DNA of 60,848 nucleotides, from IMG/VR virus record IMGVR_UViG_3300047320_000352. The stretch is one strand, 5' to 3'. Of this stretch, positions 26,499-50,244 are shown one piece after another; position 1 is the stretch's first letter, and the number at the start of each line of letters is the position of its first letter. The position numbers and the translations under genes are program-made. Under the pieces are notes generated by a model. It searched no databases. It was not told where the DNA came from and worked only from the letters and a program-made list of their open reading frames with translations. Source of the DNA: an uncultured virus (IMG/VR IMGVR_UViG_3300047320_000352) (lineage: Duplodnaviria; Heunggongvirae; Uroviricota; Caudoviricetes).

Positions 26499-26519
26499 TT
26501 AGATGTAAAATGCGATTAA
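26499..26519. promoter_or_regulatory. Putative NrtR operator (21-bp palindrome)
   Basis: TTAGATGTA-AAA-TGCGATTAA overlapping -10 TATACT. Confidence 0.75.
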
Positions 26520-26551
26520 CGATTAACAATCAACCAACAAAAACCATCACC

Positions 26552-27430
26552 ATGAACCACATTGCACTGCACTCGTTCACCGCCGAAGGCGACATGACCA
26601 GCTACCCGGACATCCAGTTCATGTCGTTCCCGGGTGGCGAGCGCCACGCCCGTCTGCCGGTTGACGACATCCTGCTCGCAGGCCCGGTGTCCTTCTGGAG
26701 CATCGAAGCGCGCGTATACACGCCGGCTGACATCATGGACCTGATGCTCGTCACGGACGCACTGCGCCGGGTGATTCCCGCAGGCAGCATACTGAAGCTC
26801 GTGATGCCCTACGTGCCGTACGCCCGCCAGGACCGTGTGGCCGTGGACGGCGAGCCGCTCTCGATTGCGGTCTTCTGCAACCTCATCAATGCCCTGGCCT
26901 TCGACCAGGTCGAAATCTGGGACCCGCACAGCGACGTGACGCCCGCGCTCATCAAGAATGTGCGCATCCGTCCGACGCGCGACCTGATGTTTGCTGCGTT
27001 CGGCATGAAGGGCGGGGCAAGCCTGCTGCGCGACTGCGCGTTCGTCGCCCCCGACGCTGGCGCCCGCAAGCGTGTCTCGACGCTCGCCAAGATGTTCAAC
27101 ACCGACGTTGTGTTCGCCGACAAGAAGCGCGACCCGGTAACGGGCAAGCTCTCGGGCGCGCAGGTACAGGGCGATGTGCCCGCGAAGCCGCTGCTCGTGG
27201 TCGATGACATCTGTGACGGTGGCGGCACCTTCATTGAACTGGCCCGCGTGCTGCGCGAAAAGACGGACCAGCCGCTGTACCTCTATGTCACGCACGGCCT
27301 GTTCACGAAAGGCCTGGAGCCGCTCAAGGCCGCCTACGCTGGCGTGTTCTCGGCGAACTGCCGTGATGCAGAAATCGCGAGCCAGCTCGGGATTTTCGAA
27401 TCGGCTGAACTCGAAGGCGTGAGTTCCTGA
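26552..27430 (+). CDS. Prs-like pyrophosphokinase, probable ADP-ribose pyrophosphokinase (Adps of NARP1)
   Basis: FPGGE, PYVPYARQDR, DPHS, APDAGA, VDDICDGGGTF motifs; short phage-type Prs next to Nampt. Confidence 0.88.
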   Translation: MNHIALHSFTAEGDMTSYPDIQFMSFPGGERHARLPVDDILLAGPVSFWSIEARVYTPADIMDLMLVTDALRRVIPAGSILKLVMPYVPYARQDRVAVDGEPLSIAVFCNLINALAFDQVEIWDPHSDVTPALIKNVRIRPTRDLMFAAFGMKGGASLLRDCAFVAPDAGARKRVSTLAKMFNTDVVFADKKRDPVTGKLSGAQVQGDVPAKPLLVVDDICDGGGTFIELARVLREKTDQPLYLYVTHGLFTKGLEPLKAAYAGVFSANCRDAEIASQLGIFESAELEGVSS

Positions 27431-27501
27431 CCAAAAGTCTTTGACAAAATCGCATAGTATGAAATACGATTTTCGACTTCACAAGTCACCCAATCATTAG
27501 C

Positions 27502-28428
27502 ATGCCCGAATCGGTGTTGTCCGGCCCCAGCTACGTTTACGCACTCTGTGACCCGCGCAAGCCACTTGATGACGCGAGAGGGTTGCCTTACGAGCCGTTC
27601 TACATTGGGAAAGGTTCTGAGCGGCGAGTGTTTGCTCACTTTCGGAACGGAGTCTACCAGAACACATACAACCCTCATAAGACGAGGAAGTTGAAGCGAA
27701 TCCGAGCAGAGTGTGGTCGAGATGCCTTGATAGTGTTTATTCGTGACGGCCTGACCGACGCTGCAGCATATGAACTGGAGGCTGTCCTCGTCGGCCAATG
27801 GGGCCGTCTGAACGATGGTACTGGCGTATTAACAAACGTGACAGCGGGCGGCACTGTTTTGAGCGAAAAGGCGTACGCGCCCGAAGTTATTCGAAAAGTT
27901 GCAGCGAGCCGGAAGGGAATACCGCTGACTGAGCAGCATAAGGAAAGCATCCGACGAAGGGCTATCGGTCGTCGGCCTTCTGATGAGACGAAAGAGAAGA
28001 TTCGCATGGCGCGCCTGACGCGCGCGGTACCGGTCTCCGACGAGACGCGGGAGAAATTGCGAGTGGTGCATTCGGGCAAGCCTAAGCCTGTGGGCTTCGG
28101 GCAACGAGTGAGTGAAGCAAAGCAAGGCAAGCCCAGGCCCGACAACGTAGGCAGGCTGAGTAAGCCGGTTTCGATGTATGGTGTCGATGGTTTGCTCCTT
28201 GCGACATATCCGAGTGCTCGCATTGCGTGGGATGTTACTGGCGTCGACTACAAGGCTATCAGTGCTTGTTGTACCGGAGCTCAAAAAACCTGCTGGAAGG
28301 CCGACAAGTTGGTCACCTTCAGATTCGGGGCGGCGGACGAAATTGAACAATTGAAATTGGCCAGCCGGGGTCGCCATGTTTGCCGGGCTCCAAGAATTGT
28401 CTCAAAGAAGAGGCTGGAGCCACTTTAG
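27502..28428 (+). CDS. Free-standing GIY-YIG homing endonuclease with NUMOD3-like repeats and C-terminal HTH
   Basis: YVYAL…PFYIGKG…R..H; repeated SDET(K/R)EK; lower GC. Confidence 0.85.
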   Translation: MPESVLSGPSYVYALCDPRKPLDDARGLPYEPFYIGKGSERRVFAHFRNGVYQNTYNPHKTRKLKRIRAECGRDALIVFIRDGLTDAAAYELEAVLVGQWGRLNDGTGVLTNVTAGGTVLSEKAYAPEVIRKVAASRKGIPLTEQHKESIRRRAIGRRPSDETKEKIRMARLTRAVPVSDETREKLRVVHSGKPKPVGFGQRVSEAKQGKPRPDNVGRLSKPVSMYGVDGLLLATYPSARIAWDVTGVDYKAISACCTGAQKTCWKADKLVTFRFGAADEIEQLKLASRGRHVCRAPRIVSKKRLEPL

Positions 28429-28521
28429 AGATTGAGCCCTAGCCGCCAAGGCTAGCTGTCCCGCATAACGCACGGCCGCAACCTTCGAATTGCGACGCAG
28501 AAGTCAAATGCACAAAACTGT

Positions 28522-28549
28522 TTGACATAGAAAGCTTTTGTGCTATACT
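28522..28549 (+). promoter_or_regulatory. Sigma70 promoter of the nadV-like gene
   Basis: TTGACA-16 nt-TATACT with TG extension. Confidence 0.8.
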
Positions 28550-28569
28550 TAATCGTAAGTCGCAACTAA
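28549..28569. promoter_or_regulatory. Putative NrtR operator
   Basis: TTAATCGTA-AGT-CGCAACTAA. Confidence 0.75.
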
Positions 28570-28607
28570 CACCTAATACCGCGTAAAACTCAAGAAGGAT
28601 TTTAACC

Positions 28608-30329
28608 ATGAATGCACCGCACGCACCCGCCGCAATCCCCGCCGCCCTCAAGAACGGCACCATCCCCATGAATCTCGCGGATTTTTATAAAACCGGGCAC
28701 CCTGGCATGTACCCGACGGAAACGAAGACGCTGGTGGCAACGTTCACGCCGCGCGGCGACAAGTACGCGCCGGTGCGCAACTCGCCGTTCTACGACAAAA
28801 AGGTGGTGTGGCACGGCCTGAAGGGCTTCATCAAGGAGTTCCTCATCGACAAGTTCAACGCCGACTTCTTCACGATGTCGAAGGAGCAGGCGGTCCGCAA
28901 GTTCAAGCGCCGCGTGGACTCGGCCCTGGGCGCGGGCAAGGTCGCGATGACGCAAATCGGAAAGCTGCACGACCTGGGCTATCTGCCGCTGGAAATCCGT
29001 TCGCTGCCCGAGGGCAGTCGTGTGAATATCAAAGTTCCTCCGGTGGTCTTTATCAATACAAATGATGCCTTTGCTTGGGTCTCGACCTACTTCGAAACCC
29101 TTTTCAGCACGGAAATGTGGAAGCCTTCGACGGTCGCCACCATCGCATTCGAATTCCGCAAAATTCTCACGTATTTCGCCAAGCTGACGGGCTCGCCGCT
29201 GGACTTCGTCAGCTGGCAGGGCCACGACTTCTCGATGCGCGGCATGAGCGGCGTACACGACGCAGCACGCAGCGGCAGCGGCCACCTGCTTTCGTTCTGG
29301 GGCACGGATACCATTCCGGCCATCGACTACATCGAAGACTACTACGGCGCCGACTCAGACGCGGAGCTCATCGGCGGCTCGGTGCCGGCGACCGAACACA
29401 GCGTCATGACGCTGCGCATCCTGCTCGTCACGCAACGCCTGCAGCGCGACCCGGCGAATGCGGGTATGGACGGAAAGGCACTGCGCAAGATGGCCGAATT
29501 TGAGGTCGTCCGTGAACTCATCGCCGACCTGGTCCCCACGGGCATCATCAGCATCGTAGCGGACAGCTTCGACTACTGGAACGTCATCACGGACATCCTG
29601 CCGCGCCTGAAGGACGTTATCAAGGCACGCAAGCCGGACGAGCTGGGCAATGCCAAGGTCGTCGCGCGTCCGGATAGTGGCGACCCGGTCAAGATTCTGA
29701 CGGGCTACCTCAACAAGGAACTGGTCTGCGATGCTGCGGGTACGCCGGTGTTCAGCGAAGGCCGCTACACGGCGCTGGACGGCACGCGTATCACCGAAGC
29801 AGAGCGCAAGGGTTCGGTGGCATGCCTGTGGGATTCGTTCGGCGGCACCATCACGAGCACCGGCCACAAGCTGCTCGACCCGCACATCGGCCTCATCTAC
29901 GGCGACTCGATTACGCTGGACCGCGCAATCGCCATCCTGTCGCGCCTGGCTGCCAATGGTTTCGCCTCGGGCAACGTCGTGTTCGGCATCGGCTCATTTA
30001 CGTACCAGATGCTGTCGCGGGACTCGTTCGCCTGGGCAATGAAGGCGCAATACGCAGAAGTCGGCGACGAAGTTGTCGAAATCTACAAGGACCCGGCAAC
30101 GGACGACGGCACCAAGAAGTCGGCGGTCGGTCTGCTGCGTGTCGAGAAGGAAGGTGATGACTTCGTGCTCTACGACCGTCAGACGCGCGAACAGTCCGAC
30201 CAGGGCGAACTGAAGCCGGTCTTCCGCAACAGCCAGCTGCTCGTCGATGAAAAGTGGGCTGTCATCCGCGAACGTCTGCTGTCCTCGTGGGTCTGCCCGG
30301 AACCGGGTACCGTCCAGTTCGCAGTCTGA
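28608..30329 (+). CDS. nadV: Nicotinamide phosphoribosyltransferase family (NadV; probable Namat of NARP1)
   Basis: DFYKTGH, HDFSMRG, GTDT, VPATEHS, RPDSGDP, IYGDSI, KDP.TD.GTKKS motifs. Confidence 0.92.
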   Translation: MNAPHAPAAIPAALKNGTIPMNLADFYKTGHPGMYPTETKTLVATFTPRGDKYAPVRNSPFYDKKVVWHGLKGFIKEFLIDKFNADFFTMSKEQAVRKFKRRVDSALGAGKVAMTQIGKLHDLGYLPLEIRSLPEGSRVNIKVPPVVFINTNDAFAWVSTYFETLFSTEMWKPSTVATIAFEFRKILTYFAKLTGSPLDFVSWQGHDFSMRGMSGVHDAARSGSGHLLSFWGTDTIPAIDYIEDYYGADSDAELIGGSVPATEHSVMTLRILLVTQRLQRDPANAGMDGKALRKMAEFEVVRELIADLVPTGIISIVADSFDYWNVITDILPRLKDVIKARKPDELGNAKVVARPDSGDPVKILTGYLNKELVCDAAGTPVFSEGRYTALDGTRITEAERKGSVACLWDSFGGTITSTGHKLLDPHIGLIYGDSITLDRAIAILSRLAANGFASGNVVFGIGSFTYQMLSRDSFAWAMKAQYAEVGDEVVEIYKDPATDDGTKKSAVGLLRVEKEGDDFVLYDRQTREQSDQGELKPVFRNSQLLVDEKWAVIRERLLSSWVCPEPGTVQFAV

Positions 30330-30337
30330 GCGGCGAG

Positions 30338-30362
30338 CCCCCGCCCAGCGGGGGTTTTCTTT
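30338..30362 (+). terminator. Intrinsic terminator
   Basis: CCCCGC-CCA-GCGGGG followed by TTTTCTTT. Confidence 0.7.
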
Positions 30363-30398
30363 GCGCAATAACTCACGGCACGAGCCATGTCGCAATCG

Positions 30399-30419
30399 TT
30401 AATCGCAATTTACGACAAA
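30399..30419. promoter_or_regulatory. Putative NrtR operator (autoregulatory)
   Basis: TTAATCGCA-ATT-TACGACAAA just upstream of TGATATACT. Confidence 0.7.
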
Positions 30420-30457
30420 GTATGATATACTGTGTAAACAGTATTCGAGAGGTCTCC

Positions 30458-31132
30458 ATGCAATACGAACGCCCAGATTTGTTTGTCGACATCGCCTTGC
30501 TGACGATGATTGACGGTCGCCTGAAGGTCGCGTTGTATCCGCGCGAGAAGGCGCCGGACGCGGGTATGTGGTGTCTGGTGGGCGGGCAAATCCACACGAA
30601 CGAAGACGCGGACATCCGCGCGGCCGCGCTGCGCACACTGCGCGCCAAGCTTGATTTCGAGCCGCGATACATCGAGCAGGTGTCCACGGAAGGCAATGCG
30701 CTGCGTGACCCGCGCCGCTGGTCTGCCACCGTCGTGCACCTGGCGGTGAATTCGCCAGACGTGCTGTGGGACCTGGTTGACCGCCGCGGCATGCAGCTCT
30801 TTGACCTCGAGGACGACGGGGCTCACCTGCCCGAGAACATGGCGCTGGACCACCGCAAGCTCCTCATGATGGCGGTCGAGCGGCTGCGCAACAAGGCCGC
30901 GTATTCGACGATTGTGGCGCACTTCCTGCCCGAAGAATTCTCGCTGCCGGATTTGTTGTCCGTTTACGAGTCGGTGCGGCAGAAGCCGTGTAACGCGGCG
31001 AATTTCCGGACGAAAATCATGAAGGAAGACGTGCTCGAAGAATCGCCGACCACGTTGTTCAGCGGAGGACGGCCGGCTACGGGCTACCGGCTCAAGGAAA
31101 ACATCGCCTATTTCAACCGCGAACTGTACTGA
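30458..31132 (+). CDS. nrtR: NrtR-type Nudix-wHTH transcription regulator
   Basis: Degenerate Nudix box; RDPR; LDH; FLPEEFSL…NFR…GGRPA wHTH. Confidence 0.9.
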   Translation: MQYERPDLFVDIALLTMIDGRLKVALYPREKAPDAGMWCLVGGQIHTNEDADIRAAALRTLRAKLDFEPRYIEQVSTEGNALRDPRRWSATVVHLAVNSPDVLWDLVDRRGMQLFDLEDDGAHLPENMALDHRKLLMMAVERLRNKAAYSTIVAHFLPEEFSLPDLLSVYESVRQKPCNAANFRTKIMKEDVLEESPTTLFSGGRPATGYRLKENIAYFNRELY

Positions 31133-31149
31133 CCACCCGGGTTGCTACC

Positions 31150-31374
31150 ATGAACCAGGACCAGGCGCAGCGCGACAGGCCCCTCCCGCCGAGCTATTGG
31201 GCAATCCTGGCGACCATTCGCCAGACGCCGCGATACCGGTTTGTGGCCAGTGAGTACCGGCTCGCAGAGCGAATGACGAAGGCGGGCATGCTGGAGCGCA
31301 AGGACGACCGGCGCTACGCAGTCACCCAGTACGGACAACGCTGCTATAGCGCCAACAAGGTGCTGGCGGCCTGA
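31150..31374 (+). CDS. Small protein, possibly winged helix
   Basis: …GML…YAVTQYG pattern. Confidence 0.6.
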   Translation: MNQDQAQRDRPLPPSYWAILATIRQTPRYRFVASEYRLAERMTKAGMLERKDDRRYAVTQYGQRCYSANKVLAA

Positions 31375-31410
31375 AGAGCGGTCAACGACCGCGGATACAT
31401 CGAAAGGACA

Positions 31411-32445
31411 ATGATGAAAAAAGAAACACTCGATACCGCTATCCGGGTCGGCCAGATGCTCAAGCTGATGGCGCCCCTGGCCGCGGCCAGCAAGGCGTTC
31501 AGCAAGCGCCTGTCGAAGCTGCGCTCGGGGCTGGATGAACAGCTCGTGCTGTGCCTGCTCGCCGGCGAGTCGGCGCAGGGCATCCTCGCGCCAGGCGTCA
31601 TCGCCGAGCTCGACAAGGCGCTTCGCGACTCGATGGTGGAACGGCTCAACGTCAAGGGACTGCTCGATAACAGCGGGCTCTCGCATCACGTAGCGTTCAA
31701 CGCCGCGCGAAAGGACCGGGTTTCCGACGTCTACCAGGTGCTCGCCCCCGCGGAAGCGGTGTCCTACGAAACGACTCAGCACCTGAAGGTGGACCAGGCC
31801 GAGCGTTCGAAAATCATTCGTGATTTCACGAGTGCGGTTCACAACTCCAACTGGCTCAGCACACTCATGCACGTCGGTATGACCGCCGGCGTCGCTACGA
31901 CGCAGAGCGCAAGTCTGGCGCGTAAGCACAGCAGCGAACAGGGGCGTGACCTCCTGATGACGAAGCTGCTCCGGCTGTGCCCGACATACGTCGAAGCCGT
32001 CGCTCCGGCTCGCAAGCGCTCGACCAAGGCGGCCACGGCGGCCACGCGCTCGAGCCGCCCGCCGGCCGTCGCGGCTGCGGGGCTGTACGTGACGCAGGTC
32101 GTGATGTCTGCAGAGGCCCTGCTCAAGCAGCCCGACATCGCAGCGCTCGCCGATACGTCGTTCCTGAGCTCCGAGAATCAGAGTCTTGCGACGCTGCTCG
32201 AAAAAGCGTCAAAGCCGGTCGTGGTGGGTGAGGGCGAAACACCCGATACGGTGGCGCAGCGCATCGTTGACGAGCTGCTGGTGGGCCTCGTCGCGCGCAA
32301 CAAGGCCATCGCCGCTGAAAAGCAGGCGGTGCGCCAGCGGGCACAGGACGCCGCGAAGGCGACCGCGCTTGACGCGCTAAAGCAGCTCAATCCGAAGGTG
32401 CTCAAGCTGCTCAAGGACAATCCGGACCTGCTGAAGAACGTTTAA
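31411..32445 (+). CDS. Hypothetical helical protein
   Basis: AAAGGA RBS; 344 aa. Confidence 0.75.
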   Translation: MMKKETLDTAIRVGQMLKLMAPLAAASKAFSKRLSKLRSGLDEQLVLCLLAGESAQGILAPGVIAELDKALRDSMVERLNVKGLLDNSGLSHHVAFNAARKDRVSDVYQVLAPAEAVSYETTQHLKVDQAERSKIIRDFTSAVHNSNWLSTLMHVGMTAGVATTQSASLARKHSSEQGRDLLMTKLLRLCPTYVEAVAPARKRSTKAATAATRSSRPPAVAAAGLYVTQVVMSAEALLKQPDIAALADTSFLSSENQSLATLLEKASKPVVVGEGETPDTVAQRIVDELLVGLVARNKAIAAEKQAVRQRAQDAAKATALDALKQLNPKVLKLLKDNPDLLKNV

Positions 32446-32476
32446 GCCAGGTAGGCCGGCAAGAAAAACGGGGTAT

Positions 32477-32920: not shown

Positions 32921-33249
32921 CACAGGATTCCAGGAAATTTCCAGCCGTACGCCGCTTTGTCGAGACGTACGCCCATACGAAGGGCCTCGATTACGAGGCC
33001 TACTATCGGGAGCTCCTGGAGCGGACGCGCGCGCACCTCGAACAGGAACTGACCCGGCTCAAGCAAGGTGAGCTGTTTCGCAAGGAGACCCAGTTCCTCG
33101 TCGCCGAGAAAACGGTCCCTCCTGAGGTCGCATTGAGCGCCTATCGCGTTGTCAGCGAATTGCGGGACGAGGGGTATGCCGCCGACGTTCTTGCAGACTC
33201 GTCCTACGTACCGGGGCAACGCCTCTGGCTATCCATCCGGCTCTTCTGA
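32917..33249 (+). CDS. Hypothetical protein
   Basis: ATGA overlap. Confidence 0.7.
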   Translation: MTQDSRKFPAVRRFVETYAHTKGLDYEAYYRELLERTRAHLEQELTRLKQGELFRKETQFLVAEKTVPPEVALSAYRVVSELRDEGYAADVLADSSYVPGQRLWLSIRLF

Positions 33250-33271
33250 GTCACTCGTTGAGGTCTGGTTG

Positions 33272-37792: not shown

Positions 37793-37794
37793 AC

Positions 37795-43147: not shown

Positions 43148-43164
43148 TGAACTTCCTTTCTTGT

Positions 43165-44415
43165 TCAGGCCGCGACGGCAACAGGCCTCACCGACGATTT
43201 GCGACAAGGCACAATCGTGTCGCGTGTTGGTCCCCACGAGCAAAACGCAACGGGCAACACCCGGTGGCTGGCCATGAAGACCAGTTCGTCCGGCGAGACT
43301 ACGTGCGTTTCGGCATCCAGTCGCACGCGCGCCGCCGCGCCAACCTGGTCCAGACATGTCACAGCCGTCTGTGCGGTGATGTCGATGCGCGCGCCGAACG
43401 CTTCGGCTAGGTCAGACCCGATGGCAACTGCAAGCTGGTCCAGGTCCAGGTCGGCGAAGCGCAGGGACCCTTGGTACTCGTTCGGTTGATTCGTGAGGTC
43501 GACAACGCCTTCATAGGGCCGACCAGGCAACTCGTTTGCCAGCGGCCCGGCACCATGCCGCGTTAGGTACGCGCGGGTCACGTAGGTGACATCCAAGGCC
43601 TCGATGCCGGCTTCGCTTGCTACGTCGAGAACGTTGCGAAGCCCCGTGTTCGACCGGGTCACATAGGGGAATGCACCCTGATGCTGGTCGAGCAGCAGCC
43701 CCTGCGCGCCTTCGAACACGACATTGTCCGAGAGCAGGATAGGCGCCGCGGCACCCGACAACAACGTGACATCACCCAGGAATTCCTGCGCGGCCTCGAT
43801 AAAGGCGTCCACCAGCACGTCCGTTGTGCACAGCTTATGATGCTTGCCAAAATCCGGCAGCCCCAGTTCCTTGATGCGGACGGGCAGGTGGAAATCGCGA
43901 ATCTCGATGAGTTTTGCGCGCAACGCGTCAACGTCTTGCAGGTCACCAGCCGTCAGCGCAAACGTGCCGGCTTCCATGCGCCCGATGGTCTCGCCAAAAC
44001 CCATGCCGCAGCTGCCGTGTCGCTTCGCACCGCGAAAATCCTCGACGAGCTGGTTCACCAGCATGTCGAAGAAGGTGGTCACTGGCGCGCGCTCGTCCAC
44101 GTAGAGCGTCGTAAGCTTGCCGAGGAGAGGCAGGAGTTTCGCGCGCTCCTTGAGATAAAGCATGGGATTGACCGCAAAGTGCCGCGACAGGTACGTCTTC
44201 GCGCCCGCGAACGTGCCGGCGCCGAAATGGCTGAAAGCATGTCGCGTGCCGTCCGGCGTGGTGACGGTGTGACTCGCCTGGCAGCCACCGTTGAAACGCA
44301 CGACGAGGCTGTTATCGCTCTGTGACGCGAAGTAATCGGTCATGAGACCCTTTCCTTCATCCCCGTAGTTCGCGCCGATGACCACTTTTGCCGAGCGCTT
44401 GCGAAGCTGTGTCAT
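43165..44415 (-). CDS. purA: Adenylosuccinate synthetase-like protein (divergent PurA)
   Basis: GDEGKG, RFNGG.QASHT, EGAQGLLLD, PYVTRSNT, YLTRHGAGP; lacks the TTGR aspartate loop. Confidence 0.88.
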   Translation of the reverse strand: MTQLRKRSAKVVIGANYGDEGKGLMTDYFASQSDNSLVVRFNGGCQASHTVTTPDGTRHAFSHFGAGTFAGAKTYLSRHFAVNPMLYLKERAKLLPLLGKLTTLYVDERAPVTTFFDMLVNQLVEDFRGAKRHGSCGMGFGETIGRMEAGTFALTAGDLQDVDALRAKLIEIRDFHLPVRIKELGLPDFGKHHKLCTTDVLVDAFIEAAQEFLGDVTLLSGAAAPILLSDNVVFEGAQGLLLDQHQGAFPYVTRSNTGLRNVLDVASEAGIEALDVTYVTRAYLTRHGAGPLANELPGRPYEGVVDLTNQPNEYQGSLRFADLDLDQLAVAIGSDLAEAFGARIDITAQTAVTCLDQVGAAARVRLDAETHVVSPDELVFMASHRVLPVAFCSWGPTRDTIVPCRKSSVRPVAVAA

Positions 44416-44428
44416 GCTGGGTCTCCAG

Positions 44429-44719
44429 TTACAGAATTTCGCAGCCGTATTTCTGGCGGAACTGGATAGCCAGCTCCTGAAATTCGGGCATATTGCCCAT
44501 ATTGGTTTTCACTTCAGCGAGTAACCCGGGCCGACCGTACGGAAGGTCGGCGTGCAACTCGAAGCAGAATCCTTCTGCCGGTGTTGGGTATTCGCTGTAA
44601 AGCTCGGCTGAAATGCCCTTGTCCAGCGCACCTCGCACCTGGCGAATTATGTTGGCCGCCCACGGCTTCCACTCTTCGGCGTCGCGTGGCCCAGCTCCCA
44701 CCTTGTCATTCGTGTCCAT
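44429..44719 (-). CDS. Hypothetical protein
   Basis: GGAG RBS before ATG 44719. Confidence 0.65.
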   Translation of the reverse strand: MDTNDKVGAGPRDAEEWKPWAANIIRQVRGALDKGISAELYSEYPTPAEGFCFELHADLPYGRPGLLAEVKTNMGNMPEFQELAIQFRQKYGCEIL

Positions 44720-44748
44720 CACTCGCTCCACTTCGAATTTTGGTGCGC

Positions 44749-45219
44749 TTAATCTGCGTAAGCGATGATTCCGACTTCCCAAAATGCCTCGACGCCGAAA
44801 TCCTTCTTCAACATGTCGACGAATTCACCGTATTCGCGCTGGGCCTTTTCGAGCATCGCCGTGCCGTCAAGGGAAGAAAAGAGCACCGGCTTGAACCCGT
44901 CTTCCGTGTCCTGCTCGAGCGTGAGGCCGTGCTCGTTGTGGTTCGGCAGCCAGATGTCGCCCTTCGGATGATTCTTTCCATATTCCGGGCAGTGCATGAA
45001 GTCCTCCCACGGGCCGGTGAGCTTGTGGATGGGAAACGGCTTCACCACTTCCGTGGGCACGTCCCGCTCAAGCACGGTACCGCCGCAGTTTCCGCAAAAC
45101 TTCGCGGGCTTGCTGACCGCCGGCGCGTTGCAGTTGTTCGAGCAGCTGCGCTCAGACTTGGTCCCCTTCACGGGTGAAGGGGGAATGACCAGGTATGGGC
45201 CGATGAAAAACGACGTCAT
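44749..45219 (-). CDS. Zn-ribbon hypothetical protein
   Basis: CSNNC…FCGNCG. Confidence 0.75.
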   Translation of the reverse strand: MTSFFIGPYLVIPPSPVKGTKSERSCSNNCNAPAVSKPAKFCGNCGGTVLERDVPTEVVKPFPIHKLTGPWEDFMHCPEYGKNHPKGDIWLPNHNEHGLTLEQDTEDGFKPVLFSSLDGTAMLEKAQREYGEFVDMLKKDFGVEAFWEVGIIAYAD

Positions 45220-45233
45220 AAAAATCCTGTTGA

Positions 45234-47507
45234 TTAAGCGAGGTAGTCAGCGATGAGCACTTCTGCGTCGTAGGCCGTGACCACTTTCTGGTCAGCCTTC
45301 ACCGGCACGATGGCGGTCGGCAGCTTGCTTGTGAAAACGATGTCCGCTTCCAGCGCGGTGGCCACCCGCTCGCCACGCGCGTTGACGTGGTCAGCGAGCA
45401 GGGCGCCTAGCGTCGGTCGAACCGGATTGACGATGCCGCGCGCCATCTGCGTCGTCAGGATGGTCGCCGTCTCCACAGCATTGAAGCCGCTGCAGCGTGC
45501 CGGCAGCACCAGGTCCGCCCATACGAACTGACGTCGCGCGATGTCCACATAGCCAACCAGGATGCGCTCGCCTGCCGCCGTCAGGTCGACCTTCTGGCGC
45601 ACGGTGCGTGCGTCATAGATGGCGCCGCTCTGTTCGTCGACGCGCGACATCCAGCCCAGATACGCTTCGGGCATATCGCCGAAGTTCTGCTTGGTGTACG
45701 AAAATGCGACCAGCGCGATGTACGCGGCGTCAACAGGGAGTTTGCGGAAGTCGATGTCGATGAACTCGCACGCGCCCTCCGGCGCCGACGTAATGTCGCC
45801 GCTGTGCGTCATGCCTTCCGCGCGCAACTGCGTGAAGCTGCAGTGCGTCACATAGTTGAAGCTTTCGTCGAGCACCGAGCAGGACAGGTCCAGGTCGGTA
45901 CGGCCGATGGAGTAGGGCTCGCCACTCTTATCGAGGCCTTGCTCATTCCACCACAGGAACGCGCGCATGATGGAATCGGGGCCCAGGTCGATACGCGAGC
46001 CGCGACCTACCGTCAGCAGCGACTTCTGCGCGGTACGCTGCGCAAACGGAACGCTGATGCCGTCCAGTGCAGGGTCGATATACACCTTGCCCATCGCCGG
46101 CAGCTTGGCGAAGCGCGCCGCCAGCACGTCGGACACCGTTTTGACGACGAATTCGTTGGCGCTCTCGGTCAGCCGCGGCGAACCGTTCTGCGGCACCCAC
46201 ATGCGGGCAGCGCCGCCCTTCGGCGAGAACGCGCGCACACCATCCTGGTCCACCGCCATGCGGTGACGCAGTTGCACGAGGACCGGCGTCGAGACCTTGT
46301 CGGCCACAGTTGCGAAGGCCTTGAGCACCGCTTCCTTGTTCGCGCCCGTCGCCTTGCGTACGGTTTCATGCAGCTTGCGAGCGAACACACCCGGACGCTG
46401 CACGAGAAGGTCGATGGCAGCCAGGGTGTTGCGCGATGCAAGGCGCGATTCCACCGTACCGGCCCAGCTCACGGGCATGTCGTTCTTGCGCAGCGCCGTG
46501 AAGTGCTCGTAGGCACGCTTGAAGCGGGCTTGATACTCGCCCGGATGCAGCGCTTCCCCCAGGCGTACCCATTGCTCGCGTCGCTGGAACATCTCCGAGC
46601 GCACCGACTCAGCGCTGAGGCTGTCGAGGAGGCCCAGCAACAGGCGGCGCAGGCCACGAGAGACCTTGCCAAAGCGCGGCGGCTTGGACAGCGTCAGGTC
46701 TGCATCCTTGAGGTTGGCCGCGCCGACAGCGGCGGCCAGGCGCAGCACGTCGGTTGGTGTCTGGAAGAAGCGCGCGAACTCAGCGGCTTCGAACGTCGCC
46801 GGCGTGTGCGTCAGCAGCCAGCCGCCGACCAGCGCGCGGTGTTCTTTTTGCGGGATGGTTGCCTGTTCCTTGAGCATTTCGAGCAGGCGGCCAGGATAGA
46901 CTTCGCTGAAATACGAGAGCAGCTCGAGCGTCACTTCCTTGTTGGCCACCGACATCGAGGCATTGCCGTTGATAAGGCGCAGCAACTGGTCATAGACGGC
47001 CGTGCGCGGTGCAAGCGCCAGGGTGGTCGGCTTCATGTGCTCGAGCATCTTGAGCGCCGGTCGCTTTGACGCCGTGTACCGAGGCAGCACACGCACCCCC
47101 ATCCAGTCGCCACGATAGTGCGCCCAGGCGTTAGAGAGCAATTCCGCGTCGGAAGCTTCGAGCACCTGTTCCGGAAAATCCGGGTACATCGGGGAATACA
47201 CGCGATGCGCGCCCAGAGCGTGGCTCAGGATGTGTACGAGGTTGGTGTGGACGTGAACGAGGTCGACTTCGGGCATCCACGACAGCGTCAGGATAGCGTC
47301 CTGGCCGTAGACGAAGCCGAGATACTCGAGAGTCAGCTCGCTGTGAAGAGCGCGGTCCATGCTGGGACCGGGATTGCCGAGTGCGCTTTCGCGCTGCGAA
47401 GCAGCGTCAACGGCGGGCAGTGCCAGCTTGCCGTTGCGAACGAGAGCCGCGAGAATGTTGAATTCACGGGTGTTAACTCGAAATCCTGCGTCAGCGAGCG
47501 TGAGCAT
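45234..47507 (-). CDS. Large helical protein with C-terminal TerD-like domain (SCO0854/MXAN_6230-like)
   Basis: TPTDVLRLA, W.RLGE.LHPGEY, RPGVFARKL; TerD motifs DLDLS, HSGDITSAP, EFIDID; GAGGA RBS before ATG 47507. Confidence 0.8.
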   Translation of the reverse strand: MLTLADAGFRVNTREFNILAALVRNGKLALPAVDAASQRESALGNPGPSMDRALHSELTLEYLGFVYGQDAILTLSWMPEVDLVHVHTNLVHILSHALGAHRVYSPMYPDFPEQVLEASDAELLSNAWAHYRGDWMGVRVLPRYTASKRPALKMLEHMKPTTLALAPRTAVYDQLLRLINGNASMSVANKEVTLELLSYFSEVYPGRLLEMLKEQATIPQKEHRALVGGWLLTHTPATFEAAEFARFFQTPTDVLRLAAAVGAANLKDADLTLSKPPRFGKVSRGLRRLLLGLLDSLSAESVRSEMFQRREQWVRLGEALHPGEYQARFKRAYEHFTALRKNDMPVSWAGTVESRLASRNTLAAIDLLVQRPGVFARKLHETVRKATGANKEAVLKAFATVADKVSTPVLVQLRHRMAVDQDGVRAFSPKGGAARMWVPQNGSPRLTESANEFVVKTVSDVLAARFAKLPAMGKVYIDPALDGISVPFAQRTAQKSLLTVGRGSRIDLGPDSIMRAFLWWNEQGLDKSGEPYSIGRTDLDLSCSVLDESFNYVTHCSFTQLRAEGMTHSGDITSAPEGACEFIDIDFRKLPVDAAYIALVAFSYTKQNFGDMPEAYLGWMSRVDEQSGAIYDARTVRQKVDLTAAGERILVGYVDIARRQFVWADLVLPARCSGFNAVETATILTTQMARGIVNPVRPTLGALLADHVNARGERVATALEADIVFTSKLPTAIVPVKADQKVVTAYDAEVLIADYLA

Positions 47508-47554
47508 GTATGTCCTCGGATAGCGTATAAATAACGAACAGGCTACCCGCAGGA

Positions 47555-47710
47555 AAGCAATACGGGATGCCGTCTGGCATCCCGTATCACCACTTCTGGA
47601 GCAGGAGAGCAGCGCCGCTAGTTTCCAATGTGAGTTGAGTAGAAGGAAGCCGCGCAATAGCCTGCAAAACCTGTCAGCTGCCGAATACTTTCGTTCAACA
47701 ACCGACTTGA
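47555..47710 (-). ncRNA. Putative structured leader/ncRNA upstream of the TerD-domain gene
   Basis: Lies between a consensus promoter and a 12-bp hairpin; GCAGG/CCUGC stem encloses CUUCCUUCUA…GAAACUAGCG. Confidence 0.55.
47560..47587 (-). terminator. Perfect 12-bp hairpin (terminator/attenuator)
   Basis: ATACGGGATGCC-N4-GGCATCCCGTAT; weak U-tract. Confidence 0.6.
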
Positions 47711-47716
47711 GAGCAC

Positions 47717-47745
47717 AGTATATACCGATAACGCGCTCGCGTCAA
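47717..47745 (-). promoter_or_regulatory. Sigma70 promoter
   Basis: TTGACG-17 nt-TATACT. Confidence 0.8.
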
Positions 47746-47763
47746 CCGCGATTTTAGTATATC

Positions 47764-48669
47764 TCAGAATCGCGTCAATGCCGTTCCTGCGGCGCGTCCC
47801 GGCTGCAGCGCATTCAGTCCGCGTGCGACGACCATCGACGTGCTGCCCGACCACGACTTCACCGTGGCGTCGACACTGGTGCCTTCGATAACCTGAATGG
47901 TCGACACGATGAGCTCAGCCATCTTCGTGTGGTCCGACAGCGGCAGTGCGCGCTCGCCGAGCAGTGCCTTCCAGTTCGCCTTGACTGACGAATCGCACGA
48001 GTTGCTTTCTTCGACGAGCAGATGGAAGACGTGATAGCTGCGGCTGGCCATGGTCAGCAGCTCTTCCGAAGTCAGGTCGCGCTCGATGTCGTCACCAAAC
48101 ACACGCTGGACCTGCGCGCGAGTGAGCACGTTGTGCGGATTCTCGTCGCCGACCGTGAAAAGATAGCCCTTCTTCTTGCGCTTTTCGAAACAGTCGATGG
48201 ACGTATGACGCGCGGCGAAGTACCACGGCAGGTGGTAGCTCTCGCCGCCGTTGCCCCCGCCATGGCCTTCCAGCCAGATTTGCGACAGCTGCGTAGCGAT
48301 GCGGATGTCGGCCTCGAACTGCGTCACCTGCAGCGGCGCCTTGTCCGAGTACGCGTCACCTACACCCATGCACGCGATATGCGGGTCGGCGACCGGCTTG
48401 CGCGCAATCAGTTCTTCGACGAGGACGCCCATACCCGTTCTCACCAGGACGTCCGCGAGTTTGCCCATTGAACCCGTTACGTCGCCAGCGACGATGATGG
48501 CAGTCGAATTCGGATTGGCCGCTGAGTCGCGCGATTCACGCATCGCGACACCGTGCGGATTGAGGTCCGGGTGCATGTGGTTTTGGCTGAACACCTGTGC
48601 GGTCGACTTCGTGCTTGTGCTCGACGAGAACGAATCCCAGTCGGTGGAACTCCAGTTGCTTGAACCCAT
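47764..48669 (-). CDS. vWA domain protein
   Basis: MIDAS DVTGSM; GGGNGGESY; VGDE. Confidence 0.85.
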   Translation of the reverse strand: MGSSNWSSTDWDSFSSSTSTKSTAQVFSQNHMHPDLNPHGVAMRESRDSAANPNSTAIIVAGDVTGSMGKLADVLVRTGMGVLVEELIARKPVADPHIACMGVGDAYSDKAPLQVTQFEADIRIATQLSQIWLEGHGGGNGGESYHLPWYFAARHTSIDCFEKRKKKGYLFTVGDENPHNVLTRAQVQRVFGDDIERDLTSEELLTMASRSYHVFHLLVEESNSCDSSVKANWKALLGERALPLSDHTKMAELIVSTIQVIEGTSVDATVKSWSGSTSMVVARGLNALQPGRAAGTALTRF

Positions 48670-48717
48670 GATTTACTCCTGTGCGTTGTGCGGTTAGTGC
48701 GTTGTTTTGCTGTTTGT

Positions 48718-49143
48718 TTAAGCTTCCGTCTTCCGGGATGTATCGCCAGCGAGCCGGCGCAGCGACTGCTCGAAGTGACAGAGCCACTTGAATTTGTCGG
48801 ACACCCACGAAAAGCTTTGGTTGGCGTCGCTCTGCGCCCGGTTAATCCATGACCCGTACTCAGTCGTGCCGGGTTGCGGCAACTGCAGCGGGATGTGCTG
48901 TGCGGCGCTCCAGCACCCGCGCATTGAATACGCAGAGAACGAGGCGCGCTCGTATCGCTTGCCGTATTCGCCCGTCATGTAGGCGTCGAAGTCGGCGGCG
49001 GCCGGTTCATCCTTCGGCGCCAACGCCGTGTTCACGATGCGCGAGATGCGGTCACGCAGCTGCTGTGTGTCGCGGTACTGAACCGCCGTGTCGCGCAACT
49101 CGTTCACGAGCGCGGTGATTTCGTGGTCTTTGAGGTCTTTCAC
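48718..49143 (-). CDS. Hypothetical protein
   Basis: GTGA overlap with the upstream gene. Confidence 0.7.
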   Translation of the reverse strand: MKDLKDHEITALVNELRDTAVQYRDTQQLRDRISRIVNTALAPKDEPAAADFDAYMTGEYGKRYERASFSAYSMRGCWSAAQHIPLQLPQPGTTEYGSWINRAQSDANQSFSWVSDKFKWLCHFEQSLRRLAGDTSRKTEA

Positions 49144-50210
49144 AGCGCAATTCCTTGTCGCGGGTCGTACAGCCTGTCATGGGACAGGTCCATCGGGACG
49201 AACTTGCGCGGGCCGAACGCCTCGATGAGAACGCGCGACTGCCAGTCCTTGTAAGTGGCCACCGCGCTCTGATGCGTGCTCAGCTGAAGCCAGTCGACCA
49301 GGGCGGCCGGAACAGACGCGTCCTTGGCCAGCCGAACACCGGTTGAGTCGCCGAGCAGCTCACGCCCGAGCGCCTGAATCATTTCCATGTCCGTGCGGGT
49401 GTCGCCGACCTTCTTCTGGAGCACGGCTGGCGGCGCGCACAGCATCATTCGTTGCGAGGCCGCCTTCATCGGAGCGCCCAGCGGCGTGGCAAACCACCAG
49501 CCACCAAAGAGGTGAGCGGTGTGCTCCTCCGGCGAAATGAAGACCGTGTCCGGGCCGATAGCGTTGTGCGAGACCTTGCCTTGAATCTCGAGGTAGCAGG
49601 CGATGTTCAGCAAGCGGCTGAGGACCCACGCGACATGCGCGGCAGGCATCTTTCCCTTGTAGAACTCGAGCACGTCCTGAAGGAGCATCTCCTTGGCCGT
49701 TTTCTTGAGGACCAGCATGGCGCCGGTCGCCGTTTCGACCTTCTTCACCACTTCCGGGAAGTAGCGCGAGAACTCCTTGCGCATCGGGTCGTTGGCGTAG
49801 GACAGGCGCGCGATGCTGCGTTGCGCGTCGTCGAGCAGGTCCAGGTTGTCGGTGGAGATGTCGAACGCCACTACGGTGCGGCCGACGTACATCGTTCCAA
49901 CCTCGAGCGCCACCTTGCGTGAGAAGCGCAGCTCAAACTGCGTTCCGTCCGTGCCGCGGATGGCGAGCAGTCCCGGTGTCTCCCACGTGCCTTCGGCGGC
50001 CTTGCGCTTGGCCGCTTTGTTCAGCTTCTTGAGCCGGTCGAACACGTCCCATCCGCGTGGACCGGAGCCGTGGTCAGGATGCCACCTCATGAAAAGCTTG
50101 CGAGCTTCCTTCTCCGCCGCCGCCGCGCTCGAAAACAGACGCTCGGGCGCATCTTCAGGGATGGCCAGGATTTCGTCAGCAGTGAGGGCGGTTTGGTCGG
50201 CTTCGGTCAT
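49140..50210 (-). CDS. J-domain (HPD) fused to a degenerate protein-kinase-like domain
   Basis: ARKLFMRWHPDH; catalytic-loop equivalent SHNAIGPDTVFI; LFGGW in place of DFG. Confidence 0.75.
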   Translation of the reverse strand: MTEADQTALTADEILAIPEDAPERLFSSAAAAEKEARKLFMRWHPDHGSGPRGWDVFDRLKKLNKAAKRKAAEGTWETPGLLAIRGTDGTQFELRFSRKVALEVGTMYVGRTVVAFDISTDNLDLLDDAQRSIARLSYANDPMRKEFSRYFPEVVKKVETATGAMLVLKKTAKEMLLQDVLEFYKGKMPAAHVAWVLSRLLNIACYLEIQGKVSHNAIGPDTVFISPEEHTAHLFGGWWFATPLGAPMKAASQRMMLCAPPAVLQKKVGDTRTDMEMIQALGRELLGDSTGVRLAKDASVPAALVDWLQLSTHQSAVATYKDWQSRVLIEAFGPRKFVPMDLSHDRLYDPRQGIAL

Positions 50211-50223
50211 GTCCAGTTAGTTC

Positions 50224-50244
50224 TTAGTTGCGATTTACGAATAA
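50224..50244. promoter_or_regulatory. Putative NrtR operator
   Basis: Minus strand TTATTCGTA-AAT-CGCAACTAA; 19/21 identical to the nadV site, same position relative to TATACT. Confidence 0.75.

What the first reader, a model, noticed from the sequence alone, without database searches (positions are those of the whole stretch)
26499..50244. A shared 21-bp operator links the NAD-reconstitution genes to a distant J-pseudokinase/vWA(/AdSS) operon: candidate ADP-ribose-triggered system
Seen: four copies of a palindrome with consensus TTAATCGYA-N3-TRCGATTAA, at 26499 (prs-like), 28549 (nadV-like), 30399 (nrtR) and 50224 (pseudokinase). The 28549 and 50224 sites differ at 2 of 21 positions. Three copies start on the last T of a CTATACT -10 box, a repressor position. 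Known: NrtR repressors bind ~21-bp palindromes and release DNA on binding ADP-ribose, the product of NADases. Inference: NAD+ breakdown (e.g. by TIR/SIR2 defence effectors) de-represses NAD rebuilding and also a J-domain pseudokinase + vWA module, possibly reading through to the divergent adenylosuccinate synthetase. That would be a wider, inducible counter-defence regulon than NARP1 alone.
Basis: partly seen in the sequence, partly recalled or inferred. Interest (0 to 1): 0.9.

Follow-up and report, generated by a model that had tools for sequence, protein, structure and literature searches.

The report
NrtR operators link NAD repair to kinase-vWA-PurA operon
One repressor-binding DNA box sits on the promoters of the NAD-rebuilding genes and of a distant operon of unknown function, and the same pairing recurs in many bacteria, so this operon probably belongs to the cell's response to NAD breakdown.

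Summary
Four related 21-bp boxes lie at 26499, 28549, 30399 and 50224. Three start on the last T of a CTATACT -10 box. The 28549 and 50224 sites plus their -10 boxes agree at 25 of 27 bases. A matrix built from the three NAD-gene sites alone ranks the distant site next in the window: 29.6 bits against 17.4 for the best unrelated site, and 0 of 50 shuffles reach it.

New evidence backs the regulatory link. J-domain pseudokinase, vWA protein and PurA-like enzyme form a conserved three-gene bacterial operon. An nrtR homologue lies in 34 of 80 species loci, directly upstream in 28, across at least five phyla. NrtR-type palindromes sit on those promoters. The Massilia box matches the window matrix at 29.7 bits. 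Some loci add the NARP1-like prs and nadV genes. Two 82%-identical relatives keep the box while the promoter spacer has diverged.

ADP-ribose induction is inferred from the family only. What the triad does, and whether it acts in counter-defence, is unknown. I rate this a new variant of a known kind, interest about 0.75.

The parts
26493..26526 (+). adps (prs-like) promoter: -10 box CTATACT at 26493-26499 and operator 26499-26519. A second register shifted by 7 bp runs to 26526.
26510..27430 (+). Prs-like gene, candidate Adps of NARP1. An in-frame ATG at 26552 is an alternative start.
   Evidence: Prs-family hits, all below the equivalog cut-offs
27502..28428 (+). GIY-YIG/NUMOD3 homing-endonuclease-like gene that splits the adps-namat pair.
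28522..28569 (+). namat promoter: TTGACA 28522-28527, 16-nt spacer, CTATACT 28543-28549, operator 28549-28569.
28608..30329 (+). NadV-like gene of the Namat type (NARP1 second enzyme).
   Evidence: solved Namat chains 9W5W/9W5X at E about 1e-126, against about 1e-41 for Nampt. One search identifies those entries as Namat.
30399..30431 (+). nrtR promoter: operator 30399-30419 (best read on the minus strand) over the -35/spacer region, and TATACT at 30426-30431.
30458..31132 (+). NrtR-family repressor: Nudix-like domain plus NrtR winged helix.
   Evidence: PF21906 E 5.9e-13; S. oneidensis NrtR 3GZ5, E 4e-29, full length; NF050029, E 9e-37, below cut-off.
50224..50273 (-). Promoter of the J-pseudokinase operon: TTGCAT 50273-50268, 18-nt spacer, CTATACT 50250-50244, operator 50244-50224.
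   Evidence: Conserved in L082 and L083.
49140..50210 (-). J-domain plus protein-kinase-fold protein. HNA replaces HRD and GGW replaces DFG, so it reads as a pseudokinase.
   Evidence: pLDDT 91; best fold match is the J-PKAc chimera.
48718..49143 (-). 141-aa protein of unknown function, overlapping the end of the upstream gene by 4 bases (translational coupling inferred). Absent from the bacterial triads.
47764..48669 (-). vWA-fold protein with a MIDAS-like DVTGS motif. Member of a very large unannotated family.
   Evidence: 5267 homologues with E <= 0.001; pLDDT 84.7; integrin I-domain fold.
47717..47778 (-). Two promoter-like sites inside the operon, upstream of the 807-aa gene. Neither carries the box.
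45234..47657 (-). 807-aa protein of the MXAN_6230/SCO0854 RING family with a TerD-like stretch. An insertion relative to the bacterial triads.
   Evidence: NF041916, E 6.5e-109, below cut-off; TerD E 1e-3.
44749..45219 (-). 156-aa protein with a weak zinc-ribbon signal.
43165..44415 (-). PurA-like adenylosuccinate-synthetase paralogue, the third member of the conserved triad. It is not PurZ.

Best explanation
The four boxes are operators of the element's own NrtR-family repressor. Three cover the -10/+1 region of sigma-70-type promoters, those of adps, namat and the J-pseudokinase operon. One covers the -35/spacer of nrtR's own promoter. Bound NrtR would therefore keep RNA polymerase off all four.

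By analogy with characterised NrtR proteins, ADP-ribose from NAD+ cleavage binds the Nudix-like domain and releases the DNA. That would switch on NAD+ reconstitution (NARP1: Adps plus Namat), nrtR itself, and the operon J-pseudokinase, p141, vWA, RING/TerD protein, p156 and PurA-like enzyme.

The link is ancestral rather than peculiar to this element. Kinase-fold, vWA and PurA-like proteins form a conserved bacterial operon that is a recurrent member of NrtR regulons, sometimes in one cluster with adps and namat. An example is Nevskia L056, arranged nrtR-prs-nadV <> Jkin-vWA-AdSS. Here the regulon is spread over 24 kb but keeps one operator type.

Shown: the sites, their positions, their conservation, the gene neighbourhoods and the protein folds. 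Inferred: NrtR binding, ADP-ribose as inducer, and any function of the triad. My guess for the triad is a PurA-type ligase working on a substrate other than IMP and aspartate, assisted by the vWA/J-pseudokinase pair and host DnaK.
For: Rarity of the sites. A leave-one-out matrix built from the three NAD-gene sites scores the Jkin site at 29.6 bits, rank 4 after the three training sites. The next unrelated site scores 17.4 bits, and 0 of 50 shuffles reach 29.6. The -10 box plus operator agree at 25 of 27 between namat and Jkin, with 0 such matches expected.

Footprint in relatives. In two contigs whose Jkin is 82% identical (L082, L083), the -35, the CCTATACT and the box core TCGTAAATCGCAA are kept while the 18-nt spacer is unalignable. 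The two variable box positions, 4 and 18, are symmetric about the centre.

Neighbourhood. Jkin-vWA-AdSS are collinear wherever the locus is long enough. An nrtR homologue occurs in 34 of 80 loci. It is directly upstream in 28 (19 divergent, 9 co-directional), about 620 nt upstream in 2, at the head of an nrtR-prs-pncA-like-nadV-Jkin cluster in 3, and downstream of AdSS in 1. Nine of the 80 loci have less than 1 kb upstream and cannot be judged. The lineages include Competibacteraceae, Massilia, Alphaproteobacteria, Nevskia, Geomonas, Desulforapulum, Pyrinomonadaceae, Clostridium and Lachnospiraceae. Two plasmids, from Rhodovulum and R. leguminosarum, also carry nrtR <> Jkin.

Boxes in bacteria. 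The window matrix finds its best hit 26-60 nt upstream of Jkin in Massilia (29.7 bits against 3.9 in the rest of the locus). Across 23 Massilia and Competibacteraceae loci the upstream hit beats the rest of the locus in 22, including most of the 7 loci without an adjacent nrtR. Pyrinomonadaceae operons carry tandem 21-bp palindromes of the published GT-N7-AC type (the motif is from PMC2330246, passages seen).

Proteins. NrtR aligns over its full length to S. oneidensis NrtR (E 4e-29), and its Nudix box lacks the glutamates. The nadV-like gene is of the Namat type. PMC2330246 (abstract and passages) reports that NrtR regulates prs-nadV and that ADP-ribose suppresses DNA binding in vitro for two family members.
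Against: No binding or expression data exist, and no RNA run was listed. The sites are imperfect palindromes.

The whole short 5' leader of Jkin is conserved in L082 and L083, so part of the footprint could serve translation rather than repression. Only two close relatives could be fetched.

Forty-six of 80 triad loci show no nrtR within the DNA held. None of the 218 phage records with the vWA homologue appears among the 10 phage records with an NrtR homologue. Massilia has the box only at the triad and no Namat was found there, so the triad is not tied to NARP1.

Promoter-like sites at 47717-47778 and a 333-nt gap before the AdSS gene may uncouple the distal genes from NrtR. The ADP-ribose-binding residues of this NrtR could not be checked because the structure paper is not held.
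Confidence: 0.7

Rival explanations
1. NrtR does bind the four boxes, but its effector is not free ADP-ribose. It could be ADPR-PP, a phosphorylated or cyclic ADPR derivative, ribose 5-phosphate or NAD+ itself. The regulon would then answer to a different signal than simple NADase activity.
For: PMC2330246 (passages) itself proposes other effectors for some NrtR subgroups. This NrtR scores far below NCBIfam's equivalog cut-off for the ADPR-responsive repressor (126.8 against 400 bits). It is only 24-40% identical to the other triad-linked NrtRs.
Against: It aligns over its full length with the S. oneidensis protein, which PMC2330246 reports as ADPR-responsive. Its targets include Adps and Namat, whose published substrate chain starts from ADPR (10.1101/2024.02.11.579819, passages).
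Confidence: 0.15
2. The similarity comes from a duplicated promoter-leader cassette. Either it has no repressor role, or it is read by another factor such as a dedicated sigma or anti-terminator, and NrtR is irrelevant to the Jkin operon.
For: The namat and Jkin sites share the -10 box and 25 of 27 bases, as a recent copy would. The whole Jkin leader is conserved in relatives. TATACT promoters are common in the window.
Against: The -35 and spacer differ between the two promoters. The prs and nrtR sites share the box but not the cassette. The nrtR site is inverted and sits upstream of its -10. Unrelated bacteria place an nrtR gene and a like box at the same operon.
Confidence: 0.08
3. The regulation is as proposed, but the triad is not counter-defence. 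It would be a host-type response to ADP-ribose or NAD+ loss, such as stress handling, nucleotide salvage or an immune effector. The large element carries it for its own maintenance or to exclude other phages.
For: Most triads are chromosomal, in free-living bacteria of many phyla. Massilia has NrtR plus triad with no Namat found. PMC9503650 (passages) predicts host immune systems under Nudix-HTH regulators that include vWA chaperones. The window shows no virion genes: 43 proteins were scanned against PHROGs, with one weak tape-measure hit.
Against: vWA-PurA-like pairs with a kinase gene also occur in lytic-type large phages. Bixzunavirus Pio has gp268-gp271 and Vibrio phage phiKT1024 has the pair. 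In this window the triad shares its operator with NARP1, a published counter-defence pathway.
Confidence: 0.3
4. The four sites resemble each other by chance.
For: They lie in AT-rich promoter DNA within a genome of about 60% G+C, which raises local similarity.
Against: 0 of 50 shuffles reach the Jkin score. 0 of 100 shuffles give a second 27-mer match. The box is conserved in relatives.
Confidence: 0.01

Closest known systems
NrtR regulons of NAD metabolism (Rodionov et al. 2008, PMC2330246; abstract, Table 1 text and passages seen)
   Same: A Nudix-like plus winged-helix repressor, roughly 21-bp palindromic operators on promoters, autoregulation, and prs-nadV as a classic target. ADP-ribose is the in vitro anti-repressor.
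   Different: The operator core here is GT-N5-GC/AC rather than GT-N7-AC. The regulator is carried by a very large phage-like element. The regulon includes a kinase-fold/vWA/PurA-like operon that is not named in that paper. Its unknown targets nrtX-nrtY could not be identified because its supplements are not readable here.
[quoted passage not shown]
   Same: A Prs-like gene paired with a Nampt-like gene. The latter is far closer to solved Namat than to Nampt.
   Different: The pair is split by a homing-endonuclease gene. Each gene has its own NrtR-boxed promoter, and the pathway is repressor-controlled. Neither paper's text held here mentions NrtR (0 occurrences).
Nudix- or WYL-regulated ADP-ribosylglycohydrolase systems with vWA chaperones (Iyer et al. 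2022, PMC9503650, passages seen)
   Same: A predicted ADPr-sensing Nudix-HTH repressor controls a conflict-type operon that contains a vWA protein.
   Different: There is no ARG or phosphatase here. The enzyme is PurA-like and the partner is a J-domain pseudokinase. That paper has 0 occurrences of adenylosuccinate, PurA or DnaJ.
PurA and PurZ adenylosuccinate-synthetase enzymes
   Same: The P-loop GDEGKG, the catalytic histidine and the FEGAQG motif are kept and are invariant across 20 triad members.
   Different: It scores below every equivalog cut-off: purA 123.7 against 402 bits, PurZ 50 against 300. Residues aligned to the GGHNAGH and GTTGRG segments of the E. coli chain are changed to GGAQAGH and GSCGxG. 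The C-terminal third does not align. The substrates are therefore probably different.
TerY-P type vWA + kinase + phosphatase triads (recalled from Anantharaman et al. 2012; not read here)
   Same: A vWA protein encoded next to a eukaryote-like kinase-fold protein.
   Different: No PP2C phosphatase is present. The kinase lacks the catalytic Asp residues and carries a J domain. The third gene is PurA-like.

Membership tests
NrtR (Nudix-related transcriptional regulator) | N-terminal Nudix-like domain fused to the C-terminal NrtR winged-helix domain | tested here: met
   PF21906 E 5.9e-13 and PF00293 E 5.5e-4; full-length alignment to S. oneidensis NrtR 3GZ5, E 4e-29.
NrtR (Nudix-related transcriptional regulator) | Roughly 21-bp palindromic operators on the promoters of NAD genes and of its own gene | tested here: met
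   The palindromes are imperfect and the core spacing differs from the published GT-N7-AC.
NrtR (Nudix-related transcriptional regulator) | ADP-ribose binding that releases the DNA | not testable with these tools
   The structure paper is not held. The NCBIfam ADPR-repressor model hits at 126.8 bits, below its cut-off of 400.
NARP1 (Adps + Namat) | A Nampt-like enzyme of the Namat clade | tested here: met
   9W5W/9W5X at E about 1e-126 against about 1e-41 for Nampt. One search shows those entries are Namat. The clamp residues were not checked.
NARP1 (Adps + Namat) | A Prs-like enzyme that pyrophosphorylates ADPR (Adps) | tested here: inconclusive
   The fold is Prs-like, but hits are weak and below the equivalog cut-offs. 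No chain labelled Adps appeared in the PDB search.
NARP1 (Adps + Namat) | A contiguous two-gene operon | tested here: not met
   A GIY-YIG gene (27502-28428) separates the pair, and namat has its own promoter.
PurZ (2-aminoadenine pathway) | Scores as PurZ rather than PurA | tested here: not met
   NF038379 at 50 bits against a cut-off of 300. PurZ 7ODX at E 1.5e-4 against PurA at 4e-24.
Canonical PurA | Equivalog-level similarity over the whole length, including the IMP and aspartate pockets | tested here: not met
   123.7 bits against 402; only residues 11-314 align; the changed motifs are invariant within the triad family.
vWA domain | Rossmann-like vWA fold with a MIDAS-type Dx[ST]xS motif | tested here: met
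   DVTGS; pLDDT 84.7; integrin I-domains, E about 1e-5. No Pfam hit.
J-domain co-chaperone | Helical J domain with an HPD motif | tested here: met
   WHPD conserved; DnaJ chains, E 9.5e-6 and weaker. DnaK stimulation was not tested.
Active eukaryote-like protein kinase | Catalytic Asp in the HRD motif and Asp in the DFG motif | tested here: not met
   HNA and GGW in the window protein and most relatives; a few distant relatives have HGD. The fold is kinase-like.

The most novel reading that the evidence does not exclude
The kinase-fold/vWA/PurA-like triad is a previously unrecognised ADP-ribose-responsive pathway of the NAD+ conflict, used by bacteria and by large phages alike. Its PurA-type ligase keeps the GTP-dependent carbonyl-activation chemistry but has rebuilt nucleotide and amine pockets. 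It would make or repair an adenine-type nucleotide linked to NAD+/ADPR turnover, for example by re-aminating a deaminated adenine dinucleotide or by producing a new signal. The vWA protein and the J-pseudokinase would couple it to host Hsp70. On this reading NrtR makes NARP1 and the triad one inducible counter-measure regulon.
Probability: 0.25. Interest if true: 0.9.

Novelty: new variant of a known kind. Interest (0 to 1): 0.75.

Why it matters
NAD+ depletion is a major theme in phage defence, and NARP1 is a recently found answer to it. This work indicates three things.

- NARP1-type genes can be placed under an ADP-ribose-type repressor on a mobile element.
- A very large, unannotated protein family belongs to the same regulatory circuit in many phyla and in large phages. 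It comprises the vWA partner (5267 homologues with E <= 0.001 among the 8000 candidates scored), its PurA-like enzyme and a kinase-fold protein.
- An orphan three-gene module therefore gains a testable physiological context, NAD+ cleavage. The NrtR regulon also gains a member that the searched literature does not mention.

Tried and rejected
**Close relatives**
- None were found in the phage records by blastn, or by tblastn for Jkin.
- None were found in IMG/VR.
- The metagenome scan gave only two relatives, and the rest of their contigs cannot be reached.
- No whole genome is held for the window, so the rest of the roughly 0.6-0.7 Mb replicon could not be scanned for further boxes.

**Family and defence libraries**
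- PADLOC gave no hit for any triad protein.
- The PurZ reading of the AdSS gene is rejected, although a MazG-like pyrophosphatase and a dNMP kinase lie nearby.

**Expression and binding**
- No RNA holder was listed for the operon.
- Complex prediction of Jkin with vWA gave weak support only. The median score was 0.36 (runs 0.80, 0.36, 0.10) against a best control of 0.00. The partner pLDDT was at least 82 and the runs agreed in at least 2% of contacts. In the tool's calibration the mark was reached by 116 of 157 solved complexes and 2 of 215 mismatches, but scores of 0.60 or less came from only 18 of those solved complexes and from both mismatches. I do not rest on this result.

**Literature**
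- NrtR plus adenylosuccinate synthetase returned 0 papers.
- Combinations of TerD, vWA, RING, kinase, adenylosuccinate, J domain and NadV returned nothing relevant.
- The supplements of PMC2330246, which would name nrtX-nrtY, are not readable. The NrtR structure paper is not held.

**Other box candidates**
- A fifth candidate at 20613-20633 scores 17.4 bits with 3 mismatches. That lies within the shuffle range (maximum 20.6), so I do not claim it.
- In the Massilia genome, box-like hits other than the triad site are no more frequent than the reversed-pattern control.

Full report
**Observation**

- 26499(+) TTAGATGTAAAATGCGATTAA
- 28549(+) TTAATCGTAAGTCGCAACTAA
- 30399(+) TTAATCGCAATTTACGACAAA
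- 50244..50224(-) TTATTCGTAAATCGCAACTAA

Three of them begin on the last T of a CTATACT -10 box, at 26493-26499, 28543-28549 and 50250-50244 on the minus strand. The nrtR site lies upstream of its TATACT (30426-30431), over the -35 and spacer. Taken with their -10 boxes, the namat and Jkin sites agree at 25 of 27 bases. Nothing else in the window comes within 3 mismatches, and no such match is expected in 100 shuffles.

Only three sites fit it at 2-3 mismatches, and by my reading the 50224 site has 4. Reading the nrtR site on the minus strand gives a better common form, TTWnTCGTAAAWYGCRAnTAA. TATACT is a frequent -10 hexamer here, with 25 copies over both strands, but only these promoters carry the box.

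**Is the distant site more than chance?**

A matrix made from the three NAD-gene sites alone scores the Jkin site at 29.6 bits. That is rank 4, after the three training sites. The best unrelated site scores 17.4 bits, and the best of 50 shuffled windows reaches 20.6.

**What the genes are**

- The window is about 60% G+C. It is part of a very large element: identical or near-identical proteins lie on contigs of 0.58-0.72 Mb, and named relatives come from Burkholderia and Paraburkholderia assemblies.
- It has many phage-type genes: GIY-YIG and T5orf172 nucleases, an NAD-dependent ligase, a dNMP kinase and many PHROG families. I found no virion gene in the window, so the replicon type stays open.
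- 26510-27430 is Prs-like.
- 28608-30329 matches the solved Namat of phage SpbetaL1 at E about 1e-126, against about 1e-41 for Nampt. The PDB codes were confirmed in PMC12774641.
- 30458-31132 is an NrtR: it has the NrtR winged helix and aligns over its full length to S. oneidensis NrtR at E 4e-29.
- The minus-strand operon starts with a protein that has an HPD J domain (profile hits to DnaJ chains). It also has a confident kinase fold (pLDDT 91), and its best structural match is the DnaJ-PKA chimera. HNA and GGW stand where HRD and DFG should be, so it is a pseudokinase.
- 47764-48669 has no Pfam hit. It folds as a vWA/integrin I-domain (pLDDT 84.7) with a DVTGS MIDAS-like motif.
- 43165-44415 is PurA-like, not PurZ.
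- Between these genes lie a 141-aa protein, an 807-aa protein of the SCO0854 RING family with a TerD-like stretch, and a 156-aa protein.

**The key new evidence: neighbourhoods**

A tblastn search of plasmids showed an nrtR homologue divergently next to a Jkin homologue in Rhodovulum and in Rhizobium leguminosarum. A profile scan of one genome per species then returned 80 Jkin loci from many phyla.

In these loci Jkin, the vWA gene and the PurA-like gene are collinear wherever the locus is long enough. An iterated HMM finds an NrtR-family gene in 34 of the 80, distributed as follows.
- Directly upstream in 28: 19 divergent and 9 as the first gene of the same operon.
- About 620 nt upstream in 2.
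- At the head of an nrtR-prs-isochorismatase-like-nadV-Jkin-vWA-AdSS cluster in 3 Clostridia.
- Just downstream of AdSS in 1.

Nine loci have less than 1 kb upstream and cannot be judged. Fifteen of the 34 are Competibacteraceae, so the count is not made of independent events. Even so, the association recurs in Massilia, Alphaproteobacteria, Nevskia, Geomonas, Desulforapulum, Pyrinomonadaceae, Clostridium and Lachnospiraceae.

Prs- and NadV-like genes lie in the same locus in L036, L037, L055, L056, L065 and L076. L040 has nadV only, and L080 has a weak nadV hit. In Nevskia (L056) the whole set sits around one divergent region: nrtR-prs-nadV <> Jkin-vWA-AdSS. Clustering of all flanking ORFs found no other widely shared neighbour.

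**Operators in those bacteria**

- The window's matrix finds its best hit 26-60 nt upstream of Jkin in Massilia: TTTATCGTAAAATGCAACTAA, 29.7 bits, against 3.9 for the rest of the locus.
- The same holds in Competibacteraceae, for example the perfect 21-bp palindrome TTATTTGTAAAATACAAATAA. The upstream hit beats the rest of the locus in 22 of 23 such loci, including most of the 7 without an adjacent nrtR.
- Alphaproteobacterial loci show related TTGCAA-centred repeats.
- Pyrinomonadaceae operons carry two tandem boxes of the form TTAATGT-N7-ACATTAA. This is the GT-N7-AC signature described for NrtR sites (PMC2330246, passage).
- In other phyla the window matrix finds nothing, as expected for a motif that varies between lineages.

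**Close relatives**

Only two close relatives could be fetched, L082 and L083, with Jkin 82% identical. Gene order from Jkin to AdSS is the same in L082. In both, the -35, CCTATACT and the box core are kept while the 18-nt spacer has diverged. The two variable box positions (4 and 18) mirror each other. The short leader down to the ATG is also conserved, so not all of this footprint need be operator.

**Mechanism**

The best reading is that NrtR binds all four boxes and blocks RNA polymerase, at -10/+1 for adps, namat and Jkin and at -35/spacer for nrtR. A product of NAD+ cleavage then releases it.

ADP-ribose as that product rests on published work with two other NrtR proteins (PMC2330246, abstract), and on the fact that Adps and Namat start from ADPR (bioRxiv 10.1101/2024.02.11.579819, passages). 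The Nudix box of this NrtR lacks the catalytic glutamates in the alignment, as expected of a sensor. Its ligand pocket could not be checked.

For a resident element, this would keep the genes off until NAD+ is being broken down. For an infecting genome, it would give an early burst that is shut off unless ADPR persists. Both points are inference.

**What the triad does is not known**

- The PurA-like enzyme keeps the P-loop, the catalytic histidine and the FEGAQG motif. These are invariant in 20 family members.
- The segments aligned to the GGHNAGH and GTTGRG parts of the E. coli chain are changed to GGAQAGH and GSCGxG in all members. The last third does not align to PurA. From recall, those segments contact the IMP phosphate. 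I therefore expect the same chemistry on other substrates.
- The vWA family is huge and unannotated: 5267 homologues with E <= 0.001 among the 8000 candidates scored, all called hypothetical.
- vWA-PurA-like pairs also occur in 218 phage records, of which 200 are Mycobacterium phages. In Bixzunavirus Pio a kinase-domain gene stands directly upstream. In Vibrio phage phiKT1024 the pair lies near a NADAR gene.
- These phage kinases are not detectably similar to Jkin. None of these phage records is among the 10 with an NrtR homologue.
- Phabba, a relative of the Bixzunaviruses, has prs-AAA-nadV downstream of its polynucleotide kinase, where Pio has the triad. This may or may not mean the two are functionally alike.
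- Massilia has NrtR plus triad with the box only there, and no Namat was found. The triad is therefore a self-standing NrtR target, not an appendage of NARP1.

**Against, and limits**

- There are no binding or expression data.
- The palindromes are imperfect and their core spacing is unlike the published one.
- 46 of 80 loci have no nrtR in the DNA held.
- Promoter-like sites without a box lie at 47717-47778, and a 333-nt gap precedes AdSS. NrtR control of the distal genes is therefore uncertain.
- The rest of the replicon could not be scanned.

**Novelty**

NrtR control of prs-nadV is known, and so is NARP1. Three things appear to be new:
- NrtR-boxed NARP1 on a giant mobile element;
- the recognition that the kinase-fold/vWA/PurA-like module is a conserved NrtR-regulon member across phyla;
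- the structural assignment of its two Pfam-less proteins.

Searches for NrtR with adenylosuccinate synthetase (0 papers) and for related term sets found nothing. The texts of the NARP1, Namat and NAD-ADPr survey papers held here do not mention it. The unreadable supplements of PMC2330246 (the nrtX-nrtY genes) could bear on this claim.

Noticed in passing
window 26499-26526, 28549-28576, 50244-50217: Each operator reads as four 7-bp units, for example TTATTCG TAAATCG CAACTAA GAACTAA. Registers shifted by 7 bp also score with the matrix. The Competibacter box is a 28-bp even palindrome built the same way. This may mean two overlapping NrtR dimers.
   Followed up: partly
window 27502-28428: A GIY-YIG/NUMOD3 homing-endonuclease-like gene sits between adps and namat. 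Namat has acquired its own boxed promoter.
   Followed up: partly
window 20613-20644: A weak fifth box-like site (3 mismatches, 17.4 bits) lies just upstream of an extended -10 TGTGCTATAAT. It precedes a GT2 glycosyltransferase gene, which is followed by a UDP-glucose dehydrogenase gene. The score is within the chance range.
   Followed up: partly
window 52315-54078; 7727-8332; 12025-14061: Further NAD/ADPr-linked genes are present: a 587-aa protein with a circularly permuted YpsA SLOG domain plus DUF4326, a NUDIX hydrolase, and an NAD-dependent DNA ligase.
   Followed up: no
window 45234-47657: An 807-aa protein of the MXAN_6230/SCO0854 RING family with a TerD-like stretch is inserted into the triad. 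It is found only in this element and its close relative L082.
   Followed up: partly
window 50251-50871 and 50320-50348: A divergent T5orf172 gene has a TATAGTATACT promoter that is conserved in L082 and L083. It lies back to back with the Jkin promoter.
   Followed up: no
L086 (phage Pio) and L088 (phage Phabba): Downstream of polynucleotide kinase, Bixzunavirus Pio carries kinase-vWA-PurA-like. The related Myrnavirus Phabba carries prs-AAA ATPase-nadV in the corresponding place.
   Followed up: partly
L085 (Variovorax sp. WDL1 plasmid 2, 816 kb linear): An NrtR homologue (40% identity) lies beside cysteine hydrolase, NAD kinase, nucleoside 2-deoxyribosyltransferase-like, Nudix and macro-domain genes. 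This is another very large replicon with an NAD/ADPr island.
   Followed up: no
window 55042-56186: MazG-like pyrophosphatase and dNMP kinase genes lie 11 kb from the PurA-like gene. Together they could be mistaken for a Z-genome (PurZ) set, and the PurZ test failed.
   Followed up: yes
window 522-1070 and 51424-52074: An H-NS-like protein and a LysE-type exporter are present. These are more plasmid- or chromid-like than phage-like.
   Followed up: no
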